A stretch of DNA of 64,000 bases from a phage: sequence record PZ445511.1, one strand, 5' to 3'. Positions 17,302-26,533 of this stretch are shown here, one piece after another (within the stretch, counting starts at the first letter, position 1; every line of letters begins with the position of its first letter). The translations under genes were made by a program, and so were the position numbers. The notes beneath the pieces are model-generated. The model saw only the letters and a list, made by a program, of their open reading frames with translations, had not been told where the DNA came from and made no database searches.

Positions 17302-17784
17302 ATGAAAAGGAAAGAATACCCTACTAAAGAAATACTTGAAAAATATTTTGTAGCTGATCCTGATAATGGGATACTATATAGGAAAACAAAGAAAGGTTTG
17401 AAAGAGTGTTGTGCCAATAATAAGAAATCACATCCAGATGTGGGATTTCAGGGCGACACCTATCAACTGCATGTCTTATTATTTATTATGTACTATGGAT
17501 ATAGGCCTGAAGAAGTAGATCATAAGGATACTAATCCTAGAAATAATAGGAAAAATAATCTAAGGGACGCCTCTAGATCGCAAAATAATGCGAATAGAAA
17601 CCAACAATGCAATAATACTTCTGGGTACAAAGGAGTAAGTTGGGAAGGCTCTTCCTGGAGATACCAAGTAAGACATGAAGGAAAAAATTACAGTAAAAGA
17701 GGGTTTAAAACTGCGGAAGAGGCTTTCGAGGCCTCTAAGATATTAAGAGAATCCTTACATAAAGAATTTACTAACTTTGGTTAG
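17302..17784 (+). CDS. HNH homing endonuclease (HNH plus AP2)
   Basis: 160 aa; YGYRPEEVDHKD..N..N and GYKGVSW motifs. Confidence 0.7.
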   Translation: MKRKEYPTKEILEKYFVADPDNGILYRKTKKGLKECCANNKKSHPDVGFQGDTYQLHVLLFIMYYGYRPEEVDHKDTNPRNNRKNNLRDASRSQNNANRNQQCNNTSGYKGVSWEGSSWRYQVRHEGKNYSKRGFKTAEEAFEASKILRESLHKEFTNFG

Positions 17785-18414
17785 TAATAGTGGGGTGCCG
17801 AAACCACTTATGTAACAACACTGCCGTCCTAGTATAATAGGTATTATTAGGGCTTCACCGCCTGAAGATGTGGGTTCGAGTCCCACGGTCGGAAAGAGTT
17901 GGATAACTGGTGCTTCTAATGGCGAAGCAATCGCAGGCAGTTGCGCACTGCCAAAACCACGCGGTAGTTGGTTCCAGGCTAACCAACCACTCTTGAAAAG
18001 TATATACTACGGTTTTGCTTGTTCAGGAAGCTTCGCATCGAAAATCGGAGGTGCGATTTTATCAGACCGCGTGGAGGACGTCTCTCCGTTAAGTGACGAA
18101 AAGTGGGACGATTCAGGTAGAGCTGGATATGGAACACCTATACATATGCGGAGTGCGCACAAAGCATATTGCGGTGGTACTAAACGAAATTAGGAGTCAT
18201 GACCTGCACAAGTTTAGTATGTCATAACCGATGTACATTCAGTACAAAAACCACTGAAGCTAAGATAGATAGTCACCTTGACTTAAACTGGAAGATATTG
18301 TCTGACGGAAGGGCTGCAGAGCTTAATCTGAGGGGGCTGACCCTACCTACCGTCGGGTATCTTTAAGAGTTCTTACGAGAACTCTTAAAGATACCTAAAC
18401 ATTAAGGAATACTG
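17785..18414 (+). ncRNA. structured non-coding region (T-arm-like element and 17-bp perfect hairpin); identity unresolved
   Basis: 630 bp without convincing ORF or promoter; gtgggttcgagtcccac at 17870-17886; hairpin 18357-18394. Confidence 0.3.
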
Positions 18415-22294: not shown

Positions 22295-22591
22295 ATGAAA
22301 CGCATTGTACTTGCATTGACTCTAGTATCTACTTCTGTATTTGCTGCTCCACAACAGGAACTTTGTCAAGTTCAAGTTTGTAATAAGCTAGAACGATTTA
22401 CTCTAGACATTTGGTCCCACATTAAAGATAATATGGGTGAACAGTGTTTTGATATTGTTCTGCCAAAAGAACAAGCTGTTCCTGGGGCTGTTCTCAGCTC
22501 AGAATCACGTTGGTGGCAAGGTTCTTCTATCAACCCAACTAAGAAGTCAGTGACACGTATCAAACAAGTATATCAGTGCAACGTTCAGTAA
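22295..22591 (+). CDS. secreted small protein
   Basis: 98 aa with signal peptide MKRIVLALTLVSTSVFA. Confidence 0.55.
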   Translation: MKRIVLALTLVSTSVFAAPQQELCQVQVCNKLERFTLDIWSHIKDNMGEQCFDIVLPKEQAVPGAVLSSESRWWQGSSINPTKKSVTRIKQVYQCNVQ

Positions 22592-22599
22592 AATTTCAC

Positions 22600-22628
22600 T
22601 TGCTTAATGCCGAAATTTTCTGTATAAT
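22600..22628 (+). promoter_or_regulatory. early promoter (TTGCTT-17-TATAAT)
   Basis: promoter family member. Confidence 0.7.
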
Positions 22629-22661
22629 ATATTCATAAATTTGGAAGATTAGGAACTATTT

Positions 22662-23171
22662 ATGTTAGACTATGAGTCTATACTTTATAGATTCCGTTTA
22701 GAAGATGGTGTACTGGTGTGGAATCCGCTCTCCGGAAACTCCAGAGAGGAGAAGATATTTAATACTAAGTTTGCCAATAAACCTGCGGGATCTTTGCACA
22801 AAAGCTCTGGGTATATCAGAGTTAACGTTGATCACCAAGATTACTTAGCTCATATCATAGTATTTATACTATGATATGGGTATAGGCCGGAAATGGTTGA
22901 TCATAAAGACTGCAATAAGTTAAATATACATCCTTTAAATTTAAGAGCAGCGGATAGTACCACTAATACTCATAATGCTAGTAAATCTTCTAGGAATACT
23001 AGCGGATTTAAGGGAGTATCCTACCACAAAGCATCTGGTCAGTGGCAGGGTAGAATAATGTTTAAAGGTAAGTCATACTCCGCAGGGCTGCACAGTACTC
23101 CTGAAGCAGCAAATGAAGCTCTAATTCAACTGAGAGAGAAACTTCATGGGGAATATGCCCGAAATAATTAA
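22662..23171 (+). pseudogene. HNH endonuclease interrupted by in-frame TGA (22872-22874)
   Basis: ORFs 22662..22874 and 22893..23171 are in the same frame and together align with intact HNH genes at 11687 and 17302. Confidence 0.6.
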
Positions 23172-23257
23172 GGAAGAATAGCATAACGGTATTGCAGCAG
23201 ATTGCTAATCTGTCGGTTTGAAACATAGCCTTGTGGGTTCGATTCCCACTTCTTCCG
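23172..23257 (+). tRNA. tRNA-Ser(GCU)
   Basis: type II fold with long variable arm, discriminator G, anticodon loop ttgctaa, CCA encoded; starts 1 nt after HNH stop. Confidence 0.7.
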
Positions 23258-23265
23258 CCAAATTT

Positions 23266-23340
23266 GGTTCTCAAGCTCATTTGGTATGAGCCGTCGCCTC
23301 ATAAGCGAAAGGTAGGTAGGTTCGAATCCTCCGGGAGCCA
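23266..23340 (+). tRNA. tRNA-Met/Ile(CAU)
   Basis: acceptor ggttctc/gggagcc, anticodon loop ctcataa, T-loop ttcgaat; one T-stem mismatch. Confidence 0.5.
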
Positions 23341-23360
23341 CCAGATAACTAGGAGACTTT

Positions 23361-23435
23361 ATGTCACGCTTTCACGAAATTAAGCAAGAACTAGAAGAAT
23401 GTATGTGTACTGAATGTTGGGGTTCTGGCACTTAA
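23361..23435 (+). CDS. possible Cys-rich micro-protein (24 aa)
   Basis: AGGAGA RBS 5 nt upstream of ATG; CMCTECWG motif. Confidence 0.25.
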   Translation: MSRFHEIKQELEECMCTECWGSGT

Positions 23436-24369: not shown

Positions 24370-24493
24370 AGTTACCTAATTTGGAAACATATCTGAATGA
24401 GAAGTAATTAAGCGAGTTGCTTTGAGGGATAAAGTCAGGATAGCCGGAAATATTCCACCTTGAGTTTAACCGACTTACTTTTCATTCAAATAT

Positions 24494-24571
24494 GGGGGAT
24501 TGGCTCAGTGGCGACGGCGCCTGGCTGTAGACCGGGTATATCACGCGGAGGTTCGAGTCCTCCATCCCCCA
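24494..24571 (+). tRNA. tRNA-Tyr(GUA)
   Basis: acceptor gggggat/atccccc, anticodon loop ctgtaga, 10-nt variable region, discriminator A, CCA. Confidence 0.6.
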
Positions 24572-24582
24572 CCAAAATTAAT

Positions 24583-24654
24583 GCACCTATCGTCTAATGG
24601 TTAGGACATCAGGATTTCAATCTGAGAATTGAACTCCGATTCTCCGTGGGTGTG
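24583..24654 (+). tRNA. tRNA-like, probable tRNA-Glu(UUC) with degenerate T-arm
   Basis: acceptor gcaccta/tgggtgt with G-U pairs, good D and anticodon stems, loop atttcaa, CCA encoded. Confidence 0.4.
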
Positions 24655-24666
24655 CCAATTAATAAT

Positions 24667-24734
24667 TGGGGTACACATAGGTTGCTAGTGGGCCTCCAAA
24701 ACCCATGAAAAGGTTTCGAATACCTTTACCCCTG
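24667..24734 (+). tRNA. tRNA-Trp(CCA)-like with shortened D-arm
   Basis: 68 nt; anticodon loop ctccaaa, T-loop ttcgaat, 1-72 U-U mismatch; CCA encoded. Confidence 0.4.
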
Positions 24735-24743
24735 CCAATATTT

Positions 24744-24815
24744 GCACCTTTAGCTGAGATGGATTAGCGCTTGCCTGAAGAGCTTGAGAGGTTCGTTCAA
24801 TTCGAACAGGGTGCA
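24744..24815 (+). tRNA. tRNA-Phe(GAA)-like
   Basis: acceptor gcacctt/agggtgc, anticodon loop ctgaaga, two U-U mismatches in anticodon stem, CCA encoded. Confidence 0.5.
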
Positions 24816-24835
24816 CCAATTTGAAGGAGATGCTG

Positions 24836-25108
24836 ATGCATCCTGAAAACTTCTTTATATACTGTACTAGTCCTTTGCTTAAACGCCGGATTAATAAAGT
24901 ATATCACTACAGAGCTAGTCAACAGCCTTATGTTTATGATTCTAGTGGAGATCATATTCCACTTGAGCAACTAGGGACTGATTATATGGTTTTGAAGCAC
25001 TTTAATGAGGCGAAGATCTCTAGCGTTCATAACCGACAAAACTCTAAAACGTGGTGGCATAAGAAGCGTAAGAAAGGCATCAAATTTCTTAAAAATGTAG
25101 TTGCTTAA
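24836..25108 (+). CDS. hypothetical basic protein
   Basis: ORF 24821..25108 (TTG); ATG 24836 with AGGAG RBS. Confidence 0.5.
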   Translation: MHPENFFIYCTSPLLKRRINKVYHYRASQQPYVYDSSGDHIPLEQLGTDYMVLKHFNEAKISSVHNRQNSKTWWHKKRKKGIKFLKNVVA

Positions 25109-25129
25109 ATCCTTAAAGTTCTGTATAAT
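25101..25129 (+). promoter_or_regulatory. early promoter (TTGCTT-17-TATAAT)
   Basis: promoter family member, overlaps 3' end of upstream ORF. Confidence 0.7.
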
Positions 25130-25157
25130 TATTACATAAATTGAACTGGAGAACTAG

Positions 25158-25346
25158 ATGAAAGCACCTAAACCGAAATTAGTTAAGTTCGACTGCTGTG
25201 ATACTGAAATCTTATTTACTAAGTTTGGTGAATTTAAGATGTGTGAATGTGGAACATGTGGTTACGATCATGGTGATGGATATTATTGCAGAACCCTAGG
25301 GCCTTCTGAACTAATCCACTTCTCATGGCCGGAAAGTAAAGAATAA
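25158..25346 (+). CDS. Cys-rich small protein (putative zinc ribbon)
   Basis: 62 aa; CC..C.C..C..C pattern. Confidence 0.5.
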   Translation: MKAPKPKLVKFDCCDTEILFTKFGEFKMCECGTCGYDHGDGYYCRTLGPSELIHFSWPESKE

Positions 25347-25348
25347 TA

Positions 25349-25421
25349 CGACCGTTGGCTGAATGGCTTAGGCGGAGGCCTGCAAAACCTCCTTATGTGA
25401 GTTCGAATCTCATGCGGTCGT
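25349..25421 (+). tRNA. tRNA-Cys(GCA)
   Basis: acceptor cgaccgt/gcggtcg, anticodon loop ctgcaaa, T-loop ttcgaat, CCA encoded. Confidence 0.6.
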
Positions 25422-25426
25422 CCAAT

Positions 25427-25567
25427 TTGCTGAAAGAATTGTTAAATCAATTCAGGCACGCGTAGGAACACTGCCTCAGTAATTGAAAGATGAGGCACGG
25501 TTTGGAGAGGTATGCCGCTACACGCTACGGTGCTAACTCCGTCTAGGTGAAAATCCTAGTCAGCAAT
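25427..25567 (+). ncRNA. 141-nt tRNA-like RNA (acceptor-like stem plus T-arm-like hairpin around a long insert)
   Basis: ttgctga...tcagcaa terminal pairing; ctagg-tgaaaat-cctag hairpin; internal hairpins; not a canonical tRNA. Confidence 0.3.
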
Positions 25568-25576
25568 ATAAATTTA

Positions 25577-25951: not shown

Positions 25952-26533
25952 ATGCACGGAATATCCTTACCCATTCCAGGGTTTGAGGAGTACTTAGTAA
26001 GTTTGGATGGGTTAGTATTTAGTATCAAATCAAACAAAATACTAACCCCAATAACCAGTAATTATGGATACTTATCTATACGTCTCCATAAAAATGGTCA
26101 ACAGAGAAATACCGGTGTACATAGGATTTTAGCATGTGCATTTAAGAAATTACCAAGTCTAGACTCTGAACTAGAAGTTGACCATATTAACACAGACATT
26201 ACTTATTGGGGTCTTAATAACTTACAAGTGCTCACAAAAGAGCAGCATCTAGAAAAGACTTTAAAAGATAAAGGATTTAGTAAACTAAATCATGATAATT
26301 GTTGTAAGGATTGTGGTAAAGCTATTTCTTTAAAAGCTGAAAAATGTCAGGAGTGCTCTTCACATAAACCAAAAGATATCTCTATAACTAAAGAAATAAT
26401 CGAGGTTACAGTAAGAGAGCTAGGCTGGTCAGGTGCAGGGAGAAAGTTAAATTATTCAGATAATGGGTTGCGTAAAAGATACACTTCTTTAGGAGGCAAT
26501 CCTAAAGAACTTAAAAAGTTAAAGGTACTATAG
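25952..26533 (+). CDS. HNH homing endonuclease with C-terminal Cys4 zinc ribbon
   Basis: 193 aa; EVDHIN..N motif; CKDCG...CQEC; 3' end overlaps tRNA-Asp by 10 nt. Confidence 0.7.
   Translation: MHGISLPIPGFEEYLVSLDGLVFSIKSNKILTPITSNYGYLSIRLHKNGQQRNTGVHRILACAFKKLPSLDSELEVDHINTDITYWGLNNLQVLTKEQHLEKTLKDKGFSKLNHDNCCKDCGKAISLKAEKCQECSSHKPKDISITKEIIEVTVRELGWSGAGRKLNYSDNGLRKRYTSLGGNPKELKKLKVL

What the first reader, a model, noticed from the sequence alone, without database searches (positions are those of the whole stretch)
22662..23171. HNH endonuclease gene with an in-frame TGA at 22872-22874
The two ORFs are in the same frame and align across the stop with the intact HNH paralogues (AHIIVFIL-TGA-YGYRPEMVDHKD versus LHVLLFIMYYGYRPEEVDHKD). 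This is either a decaying pseudogene, a sequencing error, or a read-through site. I found no tRNA with a UCA anticodon, but the cluster does contain an atypical tRNA-Trp(CCA)-like gene at 24667-24734; altered tRNA-Trp is a classical route to UGA decoding.
Basis: partly seen in the sequence, partly recalled or inferred. Interest (0 to 1): 0.45.

Follow-up and report, generated by a model that had tools for sequence, protein, structure and literature searches.

The report
Nonsense-mutated phage homing endonuclease gene
A selfish HNH homing-endonuclease gene in this T5-like Salmonella phage carries a recent stop-codon mutation, probably made in one step when DNA replication "corrected" an imperfect hairpin; it is most likely an ordinary broken gene, not a case of stop-codon read-through.

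Summary
Positions 22662-23171 form one reading frame of 169 codons, interrupted only by TGA at 22872-22874.

The window is a T5-like Epseptimavirus. Relatives carry the same gene intact (named F-TflVI HNH endonuclease in some records), with TAT (Tyr) at this codon.

- **Distribution:** the TGA allele is found only in phages bux and KKP_3831 (4 records) against 21 records with TAT. Over 1.1 kb it differs from the nearest intact alleles by just the adjacent AT->GA change.
- **Origin:** that change turns an imperfect inverted repeat into a perfect 13+13 palindrome (22851-22863 / 22866-22878). Only 4 of 4581 possible adjacent double substitutions would make such a hairpin. This is the signature of a quasipalindrome template-switch mutation.
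- **Effect:** the stop lies inside the HNH_3 domain, upstream of the catalytic DH...N motif and the AP2-like domain, so the 70-aa product should be inactive.
Its loop is 6 nt, its "anticodon" varies between relatives, it lacks an encoded CCA, and it is also present where the gene is intact.
- **The tRNA-Trp-like gene** does not co-occur with the TGA allele.
- **TGA as a stop:** it ends about 23% of ORFs in the window.

Verdict: a recent null or leaky allele. Low interest.

The parts
22662..23171 (+). HNH homing-endonuclease gene (orthologue of the CDS named F-TflVI in vB_SenS-3, mar003J3 and YZU-L1), 169 codons, interrupted at codon 71
   Evidence: Pfam HNH_3 (residues 61-99, 34.9 bits against a cutoff of 24.8) and AP2 (114-163, 25.5 bits, below the cutoff of 33.3) on the restored sequence. 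Intact 510-nt CDS in relatives.
22662..22874 (+). Upstream ORF, 70 aa plus the TGA. It lacks the catalytic DH...N motif and the AP2-like domain.
   Evidence: Annotated as a hypothetical protein in bux (bux_104) and KKP_3831.
22872..22874 (+). In-frame TGA (followed by T). Bases 22873-22874 (GA) are the derived dinucleotide; the ancestral state is AT, giving TAT (Tyr).
   Evidence: five sequences compared; ten loci; 4 records against 21.
22851..22878 (.). Perfect palindrome: arms 22851-22863 and 22866-22878, 13 nt each, 2 nt apart. It exists only in the TGA allele. In the ancestral allele the same hairpin has a 2x2 internal loop exactly at the mutated bases.
   Evidence: the only inverted repeat of at least 10 nt in the gene, 100% complementary. 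(DNA hairpin -9.4 against -3.7 kcal/mol). (4 of 4581 adjacent double substitutions give a perfect stem of at least 10 bp).
22893..23171 (+). Downstream ORF, 92 aa from an internal ATG 18 nt after the TGA. It carries the rest of the HNH motif (VDHKD...N...N) and the AP2-like domain. Its stop codon abuts the tRNA-Ser gene at 23172.
   Evidence: Annotated as bux_105.
17822..17895 (+). tRNA-like element that ARAGORN calls tRNA-SeC(tca). It is non-canonical and is not a credible opal suppressor.
   Evidence: 33 bits against 29; G.A and U.U mismatches in the acceptor stem, G.G in the anticodon stem, C at position 37; the 'anticodon' differs among orthologues: act, 2-nt 'aa', tca; the conserved register has a 6-nt loop; the only one of 28 without an encoded CCA; lies inside the 'RNAX, stable RNA with unknown functions' feature of BF23.
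24667..24737 (+). tRNA-Trp(CCA)-like gene with a reduced D-arm and a C31.A39 mismatch. It keeps G73 and an encoded CCA.
   Evidence: found by ARAGORN only at a lowered threshold; Rfam 23.8 bits, below 29; the same allele in phages with an intact HNH gene.
17302..17784 (+). Intact HNH_3 paralogue, used as the comparison across the stop site

Best explanation
This is a recent loss-of-function (nonsense) allele of a free-standing HNH homing-endonuclease gene in the tRNA region of a T5-like Epseptimavirus.

Shown:
- The ancestral codon 71 was TAT (Tyr).
- Two adjacent bases changed (AT->GA), giving TGA.
- The change makes a pre-existing imperfect inverted repeat perfectly complementary.

Inferred origin: both bases changed in one event. 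During replication the nascent strand folded back and copied the other arm of the hairpin, which is the quasipalindrome-templated template-switch mechanism.

Inferred consequences:
- Translation stops after 70 residues, in a TGA-T context that the phage itself uses at many real gene ends.
- The product lacks the catalytic His-Me finger residues and the DNA-binding domain, so it is inactive.
- The only full-length protein would come from ordinary background misreading of UGA by tRNA-Trp. This would give Y71W at a position that varies among the homologues compared, so a small residual activity is possible.
- Because a homing endonuclease is dispensable to the phage, the allele persists and now sits in at least three slightly different genomes.
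- No dedicated recoding machinery is involved.
For: - **Direction of change.** The codon is TAT in vB_SenS-3, vaffelhjerte, mar003J3, PMBT36, gmork and 26175I, and in the more divergent alleles of atrejo, bastian and S114. The paralogue also has YY.
- **Rarity.** A 54-nt probe that can only seed across the variant finds 4 records (bux and KKP_3831, each in GenBank and RefSeq) for TGA and 21 records for TAT. The exact 70-aa and 92-aa fragments each sit on 2 contigs in a 15-billion-protein collection, while the listed 169-aa forms sit on 1 to 12 contigs each.
- **Recency.** Over 1101 bp the TGA allele differs from vB_SenS-3, RA40 and PMBT36 only by this dinucleotide. In the surrounding 3.5 kb it is the only site separating the carriers from their nearest relatives.
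- **Templated origin.** The TGA allele holds a perfect 13+13 inverted repeat, the only one of at least 10 nt in the gene. The ancestral allele folds into the same hairpin with a 2x2 internal loop at exactly these bases (-3.7 against -9.4 kcal/mol). Only 4 of 4581 possible adjacent double substitutions make a perfect stem of at least 10 bp. Quasipalindromes are described as template-switch mutation hotspots in E. coli (PMC7202029, abstract seen).
- **Functional damage.** The stop falls inside Pfam HNH_3 (residues 61-99), before VDHKD, which aligns to the DHKDGNKDN segment of I-HmuI (1U3E).
- **No recoding.** TGA ends 21 of 92 long ORFs, 13 of them as TGA-T, and no other interrupted gene stood out among the same-frame neighbouring ORFs.
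- **Selfish-gene context.** Only 58 of 430 related records cover at least 80% of the locus. F-Tfl HNH genes are described as the main source of differences among T5-like genomes (PMC10644984).
Against: - No expression or activity data exist, so 'inactive' is an inference.
- The allele has no further damage, so relaxed selection cannot be shown from sequence.
- It occurs in three genomes that are mosaic relative to one another. It has therefore either persisted and spread or arisen repeatedly; mild selection for reduced nuclease dosage cannot be excluded.
- The phage encodes two unusual tRNA-like genes whose decoding properties are untested.
- An ATG 18 nt after the stop could allow re-initiation.
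Confidence: 0.83

Rival explanations
1. The TGA is decoded. Low-level or regulated read-through, promoted by a phage-encoded RNA, yields full-length endonuclease at a deliberately low dose. The RNA would be either the tRNA-like element with a UCA triplet (17822-17895) or the structurally altered tRNA-Trp(CCA) (24667-24737).
For: - ARAGORN and Rfam both call a tRNA at 17822-17895, and U precedes the UCA triplet.
- The tRNA-Trp-like gene keeps CCA, G73 and an encoded 3' CCA, and is nearly invariant in seven relatives although the flanks differ.
- Changes to the D-arm or the top of the anticodon stem of tRNA-Trp(CCA) are known to enhance UGA reading (PMC13092985).
- Position 71 differs among the homologues compared (Y here and in the 17302 paralogue, E in the 11912 paralogue, C in I-HmuI), so a substituted product could work.
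Against: - **UCA element, sequence.** It is identical over 114 nt in most phages examined whose HNH gene is intact.
- **UCA element, anticodon arm.** Its orthologues carry other 'anticodons'. The register supported by covariation has a 6-nt loop: three pairs form in 9 of 9 sequences, with GC/CG swaps. The 7-nt register fails in 3 to 6 of 9 sequences. In the 7-nt register position 37 is C and pair 31-39 is G.G.
- **UCA element, ends.** The acceptor stem has two mismatches. It is the only one of 28 tRNA or tRNA-like genes without an encoded CCA.
- **tRNA-Trp-like gene.** It scores below threshold. Its mismatch is at 31:39, not 27:43. It does not co-occur with the TGA allele: bux has another tRNA-Trp and KKP_3831 has none in the locus.
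- **TGA usage.** TGA ends about 23% of ORFs, mostly as TGA-T, the same context as here.
Confidence: 0.06
2. The gene works as a split or shortened gene. After termination at TGA, ribosomes re-initiate at ATG 22893. The 92-aa product (HNH remainder plus the AP2-like domain) is active alone or together with the 70-aa fragment.
For: - The ATG lies 18 nt downstream of the stop in the same frame.
- The 92-aa ORF contains VDHKD...N...N and the AP2-like domain.
- Annotators of S114, S133 and SE3 even called only this 92-aa ORF.
Against: - Those 92-aa annotations are start-site miscalls in genes whose 169-codon ORF is intact.
- The ATG and its weak AGG upstream are unchanged from the intact alleles, so nothing has evolved for re-initiation.
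- The 92-aa piece lacks the first third of the HNH_3 domain, residues 61-70 with the conserved AH strand.
Confidence: 0.06
3. Sequencing or assembly error: the true sequence is TAT.
For: A palindromic context could in principle cause artefacts. The difference from the nearest relatives is confined to 2 bases.
Against: The same GA is present in this window, in bux and in KKP_3831. bux is a wastewater phage grown on S. Enteritidis PT1; KKP_3831 came from Warsaw wastewater and a different host strain. All three differ by private SNPs and by mosaic flanks. The site is not a homopolymer.
Confidence: 0.02
4. The TGA encodes selenocysteine, using the element that ARAGORN labels tRNA-SeC.
For: Only the ARAGORN label 'tRNA-SeC(tca)'.
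Against: - ARAGORN gave the SeC label to each tca call here.
- The RNA is 74 nt with a 5-nt variable region and has no long extra arm.
- The ancestral residue is Tyr, not Cys.
- The element also occurs where there is no in-frame TGA.
Confidence: 0.005

Closest known systems
F-Tfl HNH endonucleases of bacteriophage T5 (F-TflI, II and IV characterised by Akulenko et al. 2004, cited in PMC10644984); the orthologue is named 'F-TflVI' in the vB_SenS-3, mar003J3 and YZU-L1 records
   Same: Same position class (free-standing gene between tRNA genes of a T5-like phage) and the same HNH_3 domain. The orthologues are 99% or more identical, and the gene is patchily present among relatives.
   Different: This allele is interrupted at codon 71. 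The activity of F-TflVI itself is, as far as I could find, only an annotation (no paper held the term).
I-HmuI (PDB 1U3E), HNH homing (nicking) endonuclease of Bacillus phage SPO1
   Same: The core motif aligns: HxxV...GY...VDHKDxNKxN...NLR.
   Different: The match is very weak overall (E = 0.53). The C-terminal DNA-binding part differs (AP2-like here). I-HmuI is intron-encoded, whereas this gene is free-standing.
Quasipalindrome-associated template-switch mutations (E. coli and yeast hotspots; PMC7202029, PMC3820800)
   Same: An imperfect inverted repeat becomes perfect through a multi-base change that copies the opposite arm.
   Different: Seen here as a natural polymorphism in a phage genome, not in a reporter assay. 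The replication strand and the enzymes involved are unknown.
UGA-reading tRNA-Trp(CCA) variants (Hirsh G24A, A9C, 4-bp anticodon stem; PMC13092985)
   Same: [quoted passage not shown]
   Different: The unpaired position is 31:39, at the bottom of the stem, not 27:43 at the top. The D-arm is grossly reduced rather than point-mutated. There is no link to in-frame UGA codons.

Membership tests
HNH_3 / His-Me finger homing endonuclease (T5 F-Tfl type) | Sequence match to the HNH_3 profile above the curated threshold | tested here: met
   34.9 bits against a cutoff of 24.8, residues 61-99 of the read-through sequence.
HNH_3 / His-Me finger homing endonuclease (T5 F-Tfl type) | Catalytic D-H ... N ... 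N motif present | tested here: met
   VDHKDCNKLN...NLR aligns with VDHKDGNKDN...NLR of I-HmuI 1U3E. The role of these residues comes from my own knowledge of I-HmuI.
HNH_3 / His-Me finger homing endonuclease (T5 F-Tfl type) | Uninterrupted ORF encoding the whole domain | tested here: not met
   TGA at codon 71, inside the HNH_3 match.
HNH_3 / His-Me finger homing endonuclease (T5 F-Tfl type) | Attached DNA-binding module | tested here: inconclusive
   AP2 scores 25.5 bits, below the cutoff of 33.3. There is a weak match to the AP2 domain of WRI1, PDB 7WQ5.
HNH_3 / His-Me finger homing endonuclease (T5 F-Tfl type) | Patchy, mobile-element-like distribution among close relatives | tested here: met
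   58 of 430 matching phage records cover at least 80% of the locus.
HNH_3 / His-Me finger homing endonuclease (T5 F-Tfl type) | Site-specific nuclease activity and homing | not testable with these tools
   Needs an enzyme assay or co-infection crosses.
Opal suppressor tRNA (anticodon UCA), for 17822-17895 | Cloverleaf recognised by tRNA models | tested here: met
   Marginal: Rfam tRNA 33 bits against 29; called by ARAGORN.
Opal suppressor tRNA (anticodon UCA), for 17822-17895 | Canonical 7-nt anticodon loop (U33, purine 37) closed by a 5-bp stem | tested here: not met
   The register conserved in 9 orthologues has a 6-nt loop with covarying pairs. The 7-nt register is unpaired in 3 to 6 of 9 sequences and has C37 and G31.G39.
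Opal suppressor tRNA (anticodon UCA), for 17822-17895 | Anticodon conserved among orthologues | tested here: not met
   ARAGORN reads act, a 2-nt 'aa', or tca in different T5-like phages.
Opal suppressor tRNA (anticodon UCA), for 17822-17895 | Paired acceptor stem and a 3' CCA like the phage's other tRNAs | tested here: not met
   G.A and U.U mismatches in the acceptor stem. It is the only one of 28 without an encoded CCA.
Opal suppressor tRNA (anticodon UCA), for 17822-17895 | Co-occurrence with in-frame UGA codons | tested here: not met
   The element is identical over 114 nt in most examined phages with the intact gene. At least 77 records match it at 95% identity or more, against 4 records with the TGA allele.
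Selenocysteine tRNA | Long variable arm and extended acceptor/T architecture, with a Sec-decoding context | tested here: not met
   74 nt with a 5-nt variable region. The ancestral residue is Tyr.
UGA-reading tRNA-Trp(CCA) variants, for 24667-24737 | CCA anticodon with Trp-type acceptor end (G73) | tested here: met
UGA-reading tRNA-Trp(CCA) variants, for 24667-24737 | Unpaired top pair 27:43, or a G24A/A9C-type point change in an otherwise normal tRNA | tested here: not met
   27:43 is U-A. The mismatch is C31.A39. The D-arm lacks about 3 nt and most of its pairs, and the score is 23.8 bits, below 29. Definitions are from PMC13092985.
UGA-reading tRNA-Trp(CCA) variants, for 24667-24737 | Association with in-frame UGA | tested here: not met
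   The same allele is in vB_SenS-3, vaffelhjerte, PMBT36, gmork, mar003J3 and atrejo, all with an intact HNH gene. It is absent from the bux and KKP_3831 loci.
Quasipalindrome-templated (template-switch) mutation | The ancestral sequence is an imperfect inverted repeat | tested here: met
   A hairpin with a 2x2 internal loop, -3.7 kcal/mol, z = -2.9.
Quasipalindrome-templated (template-switch) mutation | The mutation makes the arms perfectly complementary; a multi-base change is explained by one event | tested here: met
   13+13 nt, 100% complementary; 4 of 4581 by chance.
Quasipalindrome-templated (template-switch) mutation | Dependence on replication or exonuclease background | not testable with these tools
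   Needs a genetic assay.

The most novel reading that the evidence does not exclude
The most novel reading not excluded: T5-like phages carry non-canonical tRNA-type RNAs that raise UGA read-through during infection. Candidates are the D-arm-reduced tRNA-Trp(CCA) at 24667-24737 and the hexaloop tRNA-like element at 17822-17895. On this reading the TGA allele is a tolerated, dose-reduced version of a toxic homing endonuclease rather than a dead gene.
Probability: 0.05. Interest if true: 0.6.

Novelty: new member of a known kind. Interest (0 to 1): 0.15.

Why it matters
- **Annotation.** bux_104/105 and the KKP_3831 pair are two halves of one disrupted HNH gene and should be marked as a pseudogene. 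The label 'tRNA-Sec' or 'tRNA-OTHER' on the upstream element should not be read as evidence for a suppressor.
- **A natural example of a known mutation mechanism.** A templated two-base mutation creating a nonsense codon in a phage is a small, clean natural case of quasipalindrome correction.
- **Genetic code.** It does not change what is known about the genetic code in these phages.
- **A possible follow-up.** The conserved hexaloop tRNA-like element, which lies within the 'RNAX' feature of BF23, is a more interesting loose end than the stop codon itself.

Tried and rejected
- **Public collection scans.** I scanned IMG/VR and the JGI metagenome contigs for the site with NN at the variable dinucleotide. 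Both gave 0 matches, so there are no extra allele frequencies.
- **Literature.** Searches for 'F-TflVI', for T5-like plus tRNA-Sec, and for Epseptimavirus plus suppressor found nothing. A search for T5 tRNA-like or stable RNA gave nothing specific.
- **Gene conversion from a paralogue.** No other copy of TACTATGATATGGGTA exists in the window. The only near match is the opposite arm of the same palindrome, which is what led to the template-switch explanation.
- **Independent truncations in S114, S133 and SE3.** Their 92-aa annotations suggested this, but the ORF in S114 is intact, so these are start-site miscalls.
- **Linked SNPs.** I looked for variants that would separate a single origin from recurrent mutation. 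There are none; all other variants are private.
- **Promoter.** By eye there is a TATAAT at 22623-22628 with TTGCTT 17 nt upstream. The consensus scan did not report it because the -35 matches only 3 of 6, so I make no claim from it.
- **Not run.** Structure prediction and large homology searches were skipped because they could not change the verdict.

Full report
**What the window is.** The region 22300-23400 is 100% identical to Salmonella phages bux and KKP_3831, and 95-99.8% identical to many other Epseptimavirus genomes (T5-like, Demerecviridae). Over 24 kb the best match is vB_SenS-3 at 99.3%. The window is not identical to bux: it is 99.7% identical over 8 kb and mosaic beyond that. It is therefore a distinct but closely related genome. 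The finding lies in the tRNA gene region. ARAGORN lists 28 tRNA genes in the window, interspersed with small ORFs and four HNH_3-type genes.

**The observation.** Positions 22662-23174 translate in one frame with a single internal TGA at 22872-22874. The upstream ORF has 70 codons. The downstream ORF has 92 codons and starts at an ATG 18 nt after the stop. With the stop read through, the protein matches Pfam HNH_3 (residues 61-99, above threshold) and AP2 (114-163, below threshold). It aligns across the stop with the intact paralogue at 17302-17784 (46% identity, E = 5e-29). It also shows a weak match to the HNH core of I-HmuI.

**What relatives show.** Eight related phages annotate a single 510-nt CDS here: vB_SenS-3, vaffelhjerte, mar003J3, PMBT36, gmork, 26175I, atrejo and bastian. 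Some records name it 'H-N-H endonuclease F-TflVI'. In all of them, and in S114, the codon is TAT (Tyr). bux and KKP_3831 share the TGA and annotate two hypothetical proteins.

A 54-nt probe in which every 28-mer seed must span the variant finds 4 records with TGA (two phages, each in GenBank and RefSeq) and 21 with TAT. In a 15-billion-protein collection the exact 70-aa and 92-aa fragments each occur on 2 contigs, while the listed 169-aa forms sit on 1 to 12 contigs each. The 92-aa 'homing endonuclease' entries of S114, S133 and SE3 are start-site miscalls in intact genes.

TGA is therefore the derived, rare state. Over 1.1 kb it differs from the closest intact alleles only by AT->GA at 22873-22874.

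**Not a sequencing error.** In the 3.5 kb around the site, the window, bux, KKP_3831, vB_SenS-3 and PMBT36 differ only by private SNPs. The dinucleotide is the only site that splits them into carriers and non-carriers. The three carriers are thus distinct genomes, and bux and KKP_3831 were deposited by different laboratories, so a sequencing error is very unlikely. The same result means that a single origin followed by spread cannot be told apart from recurrence at a hotspot.

**How the mutation arose.** TAT->TGA needs two adjacent substitutions. While searching the window for a possible donor sequence, I found that the only near match was the complementary strand just upstream. The repeat finder then reported one inverted repeat in the gene: arms 22851-22863 and 22866-22878, 13 nt each, 100% complementary, 2 nt apart.

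Folded as single-stranded DNA, the ancestral (TAT) sequence forms the same hairpin with a 2x2 internal loop exactly at the two bases that changed (-3.7 kcal/mol). The TGA allele forms a perfect stem (-9.4 kcal/mol, z = -6.1). I enumerated all 4581 adjacent double substitutions of the ancestral gene. Only 4 (0.09%) create a perfect stem of at least 10 bp covering the changed bases, and the observed change is one of them.

This is the defining pattern of quasipalindrome-associated template-switch mutation, a known hotspot class in E. coli (PMC7202029 and PMC3820800, abstracts). I infer a single replication error, not selection for a stop codon.

**Consequence for the protein.** The stop lies 10 residues into the HNH_3 match, upstream of VDHKD...N...N. 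That segment aligns to DHKDGNKDN...NLR of I-HmuI. The catalytic role of those residues comes from my own knowledge of I-HmuI. The 70-aa product should therefore be inactive.

The stop is followed by T. TGA-T is also the commonest TGA context at real ORF ends in this window (13 of 21). From my own knowledge of E. coli termination contexts (Poole et al. 1995), UGA-U is an efficient terminator.

Background misreading of UGA by tRNA-Trp would give Y71W. The equivalent position is Y, E or C in the homologues compared, so a trace of active enzyme is plausible but unproven.

ARAGORN calls 'tRNA-SeC(tca)' at 17822-17895 and Rfam scores it at 33 bits (threshold 29). Several deposited genomes annotate it as tRNA-Sec or tRNA-OTHER. 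It fails the tests for a decoding tRNA in five ways:

- Its drawn structure has G.A and U.U mismatches in the acceptor stem, G.G closing the anticodon stem, and C at position 37.
- Orthologues occur across T5-like phages, including T5_ev212, Klebsiella phages and BF23. In BF23 it lies inside a feature annotated 'RNAX, stable RNA with unknown functions'. ARAGORN reads a different 'anticodon' in each: act, a 2-nt 'aa', or tca.
- On a 9-sequence alignment, the register with a 6-nt loop has three pairs formed in 9 of 9 sequences, with GC/CG and GC/AU swaps. The 7-nt-loop register that yields 'UCA' is unpaired in 3 to 6 of 9 sequences at four of its five pairs.
- It is the only one of 28 tRNA or tRNA-like genes in the window without an encoded 3' CCA.
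- The UCA version is identical over 114 nt in most of the examined phages whose HNH gene is intact.

It is a conserved tRNA-like RNA of unknown function, not a credible opal suppressor. The selenocysteine label appeared on every tca call here and nothing else supports it.

**The tRNA-Trp-like gene.** The element at 24667-24737 has a CCA anticodon, G73 and an encoded CCA. Against that, it has a 1-72 mismatch, a C31.A39 mismatch and a D-arm about 3 nt short with almost no pairing. ARAGORN finds it only at a lowered threshold, and Rfam gives 23.8 bits against a threshold of 29.

It is nearly invariant in vB_SenS-3, vaffelhjerte, mar003J3, PMBT36, gmork, atrejo and bastian, all of which have an intact HNH gene. 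TGA carrier bux has a different tRNA-Trp, and KKP_3831 has none in the 13-kb locus.

Known UGA-reading tRNA-Trp(CCA) variants have G24A or A9C, or an unpaired 27:43 pair (PMC13092985). This element matches none of those definitions. Its near-invariance suggests it may be a functional, reduced tRNA, but nothing links it to this stop codon.

**No sign of recoding.** TGA ends 21 of 92 long ORFs (TAA 63, TAG 8). The other same-frame stretches separated by TGA do not look like interrupted genes.

**Verdict.** The feature is real. It is best explained as a very recent nonsense allele of a dispensable, selfish homing-endonuclease gene, created in one step by quasipalindrome-templated replication slippage (confidence about 0.83).

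The rivals are read-through aided by phage RNAs (about 0.06), re-initiation giving a functional split or short protein (about 0.06), sequencing error (about 0.02) and selenocysteine (below 0.01).

It is a new instance of known kinds of event and is of low general interest. Its practical value is in correcting annotation: the split CDS pair in bux and KKP_3831, the 'tRNA-Sec' label, and the 92-aa miscalls.

Noticed in passing
window 17822-17895; L011 (BF23) 275-355; L012-L017: A tRNA-like element is conserved across T5-like phages (Epseptimavirus, Tequintavirus, Klebsiella Sugarlandvirus). It has a well-paired T-arm, a covarying 3-4 bp 'anticodon' stem closing a 6-nt loop, a hypervariable loop sequence and no encoded CCA. 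In BF23 it lies within the feature 'RNAX, stable RNA with unknown functions'. Its function is unknown.
   Followed up: partly
window 24667-24737: A tRNA-Trp(CCA)-like gene with a strongly reduced D-arm and a C31.A39 mismatch keeps G73 and CCA. It is nearly invariant in seven relatives although the flanks differ. The window has a private G->A at 24675. It could be a functional minimal tRNA rather than a pseudogene.
   Followed up: partly
window 24583-24654: Rfam finds a tRNA here (35 bits, reads as tRNA-Glu UUC) that ARAGORN misses at default settings. The T-stem has non-standard pairs.
   Followed up: no
window 22981-22992 / 22998-23009: The same gene holds a second quasipalindrome. Two adjacent substitutions (at 22988 or 23003) would make it a perfect 12-bp hairpin, so it is another potential template-switch site.
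   Followed up: no
L010 (phage bastian) 2949-3335 and 3356-3892: The SPFH/band-7 gene of phage bastian is annotated as two consecutive CDS, so it is another interrupted gene in a relative. The orthologue is annotated as a single 945-nt CDS in bux and other relatives.
   Followed up: no
L018 (phage S114) 563-1072; P0008, P0009: S114, S133 and SE3 annotate only the 92-aa C-terminal part as 'homing endonuclease', although the full 169-codon ORF is intact in S114. This is a start-codon miscall.
   Followed up: yes
window 23171/23172 and 26524-26533: HNH ORFs abut or overlap the tRNA genes that follow. The stop of this gene is directly followed by tRNA-Ser, and the gene at 25952-26533 overlaps the start of tRNA-Asp. 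The ORFs and tRNAs are therefore probably co-transcribed, and a premature stop might have polar effects on tRNA-Ser and tRNA-Met expression.
   Followed up: no
window 24392-25570 against L001 (bux) and L005 (KKP_3831): The tRNA cluster is strongly mosaic among near-identical phages. bux has different tRNA-Glu and tRNA-Trp alleles here. After the tRNA-Met following the HNH gene, KKP_3831 diverges and annotates a different set of tRNAs.
   Followed up: partly
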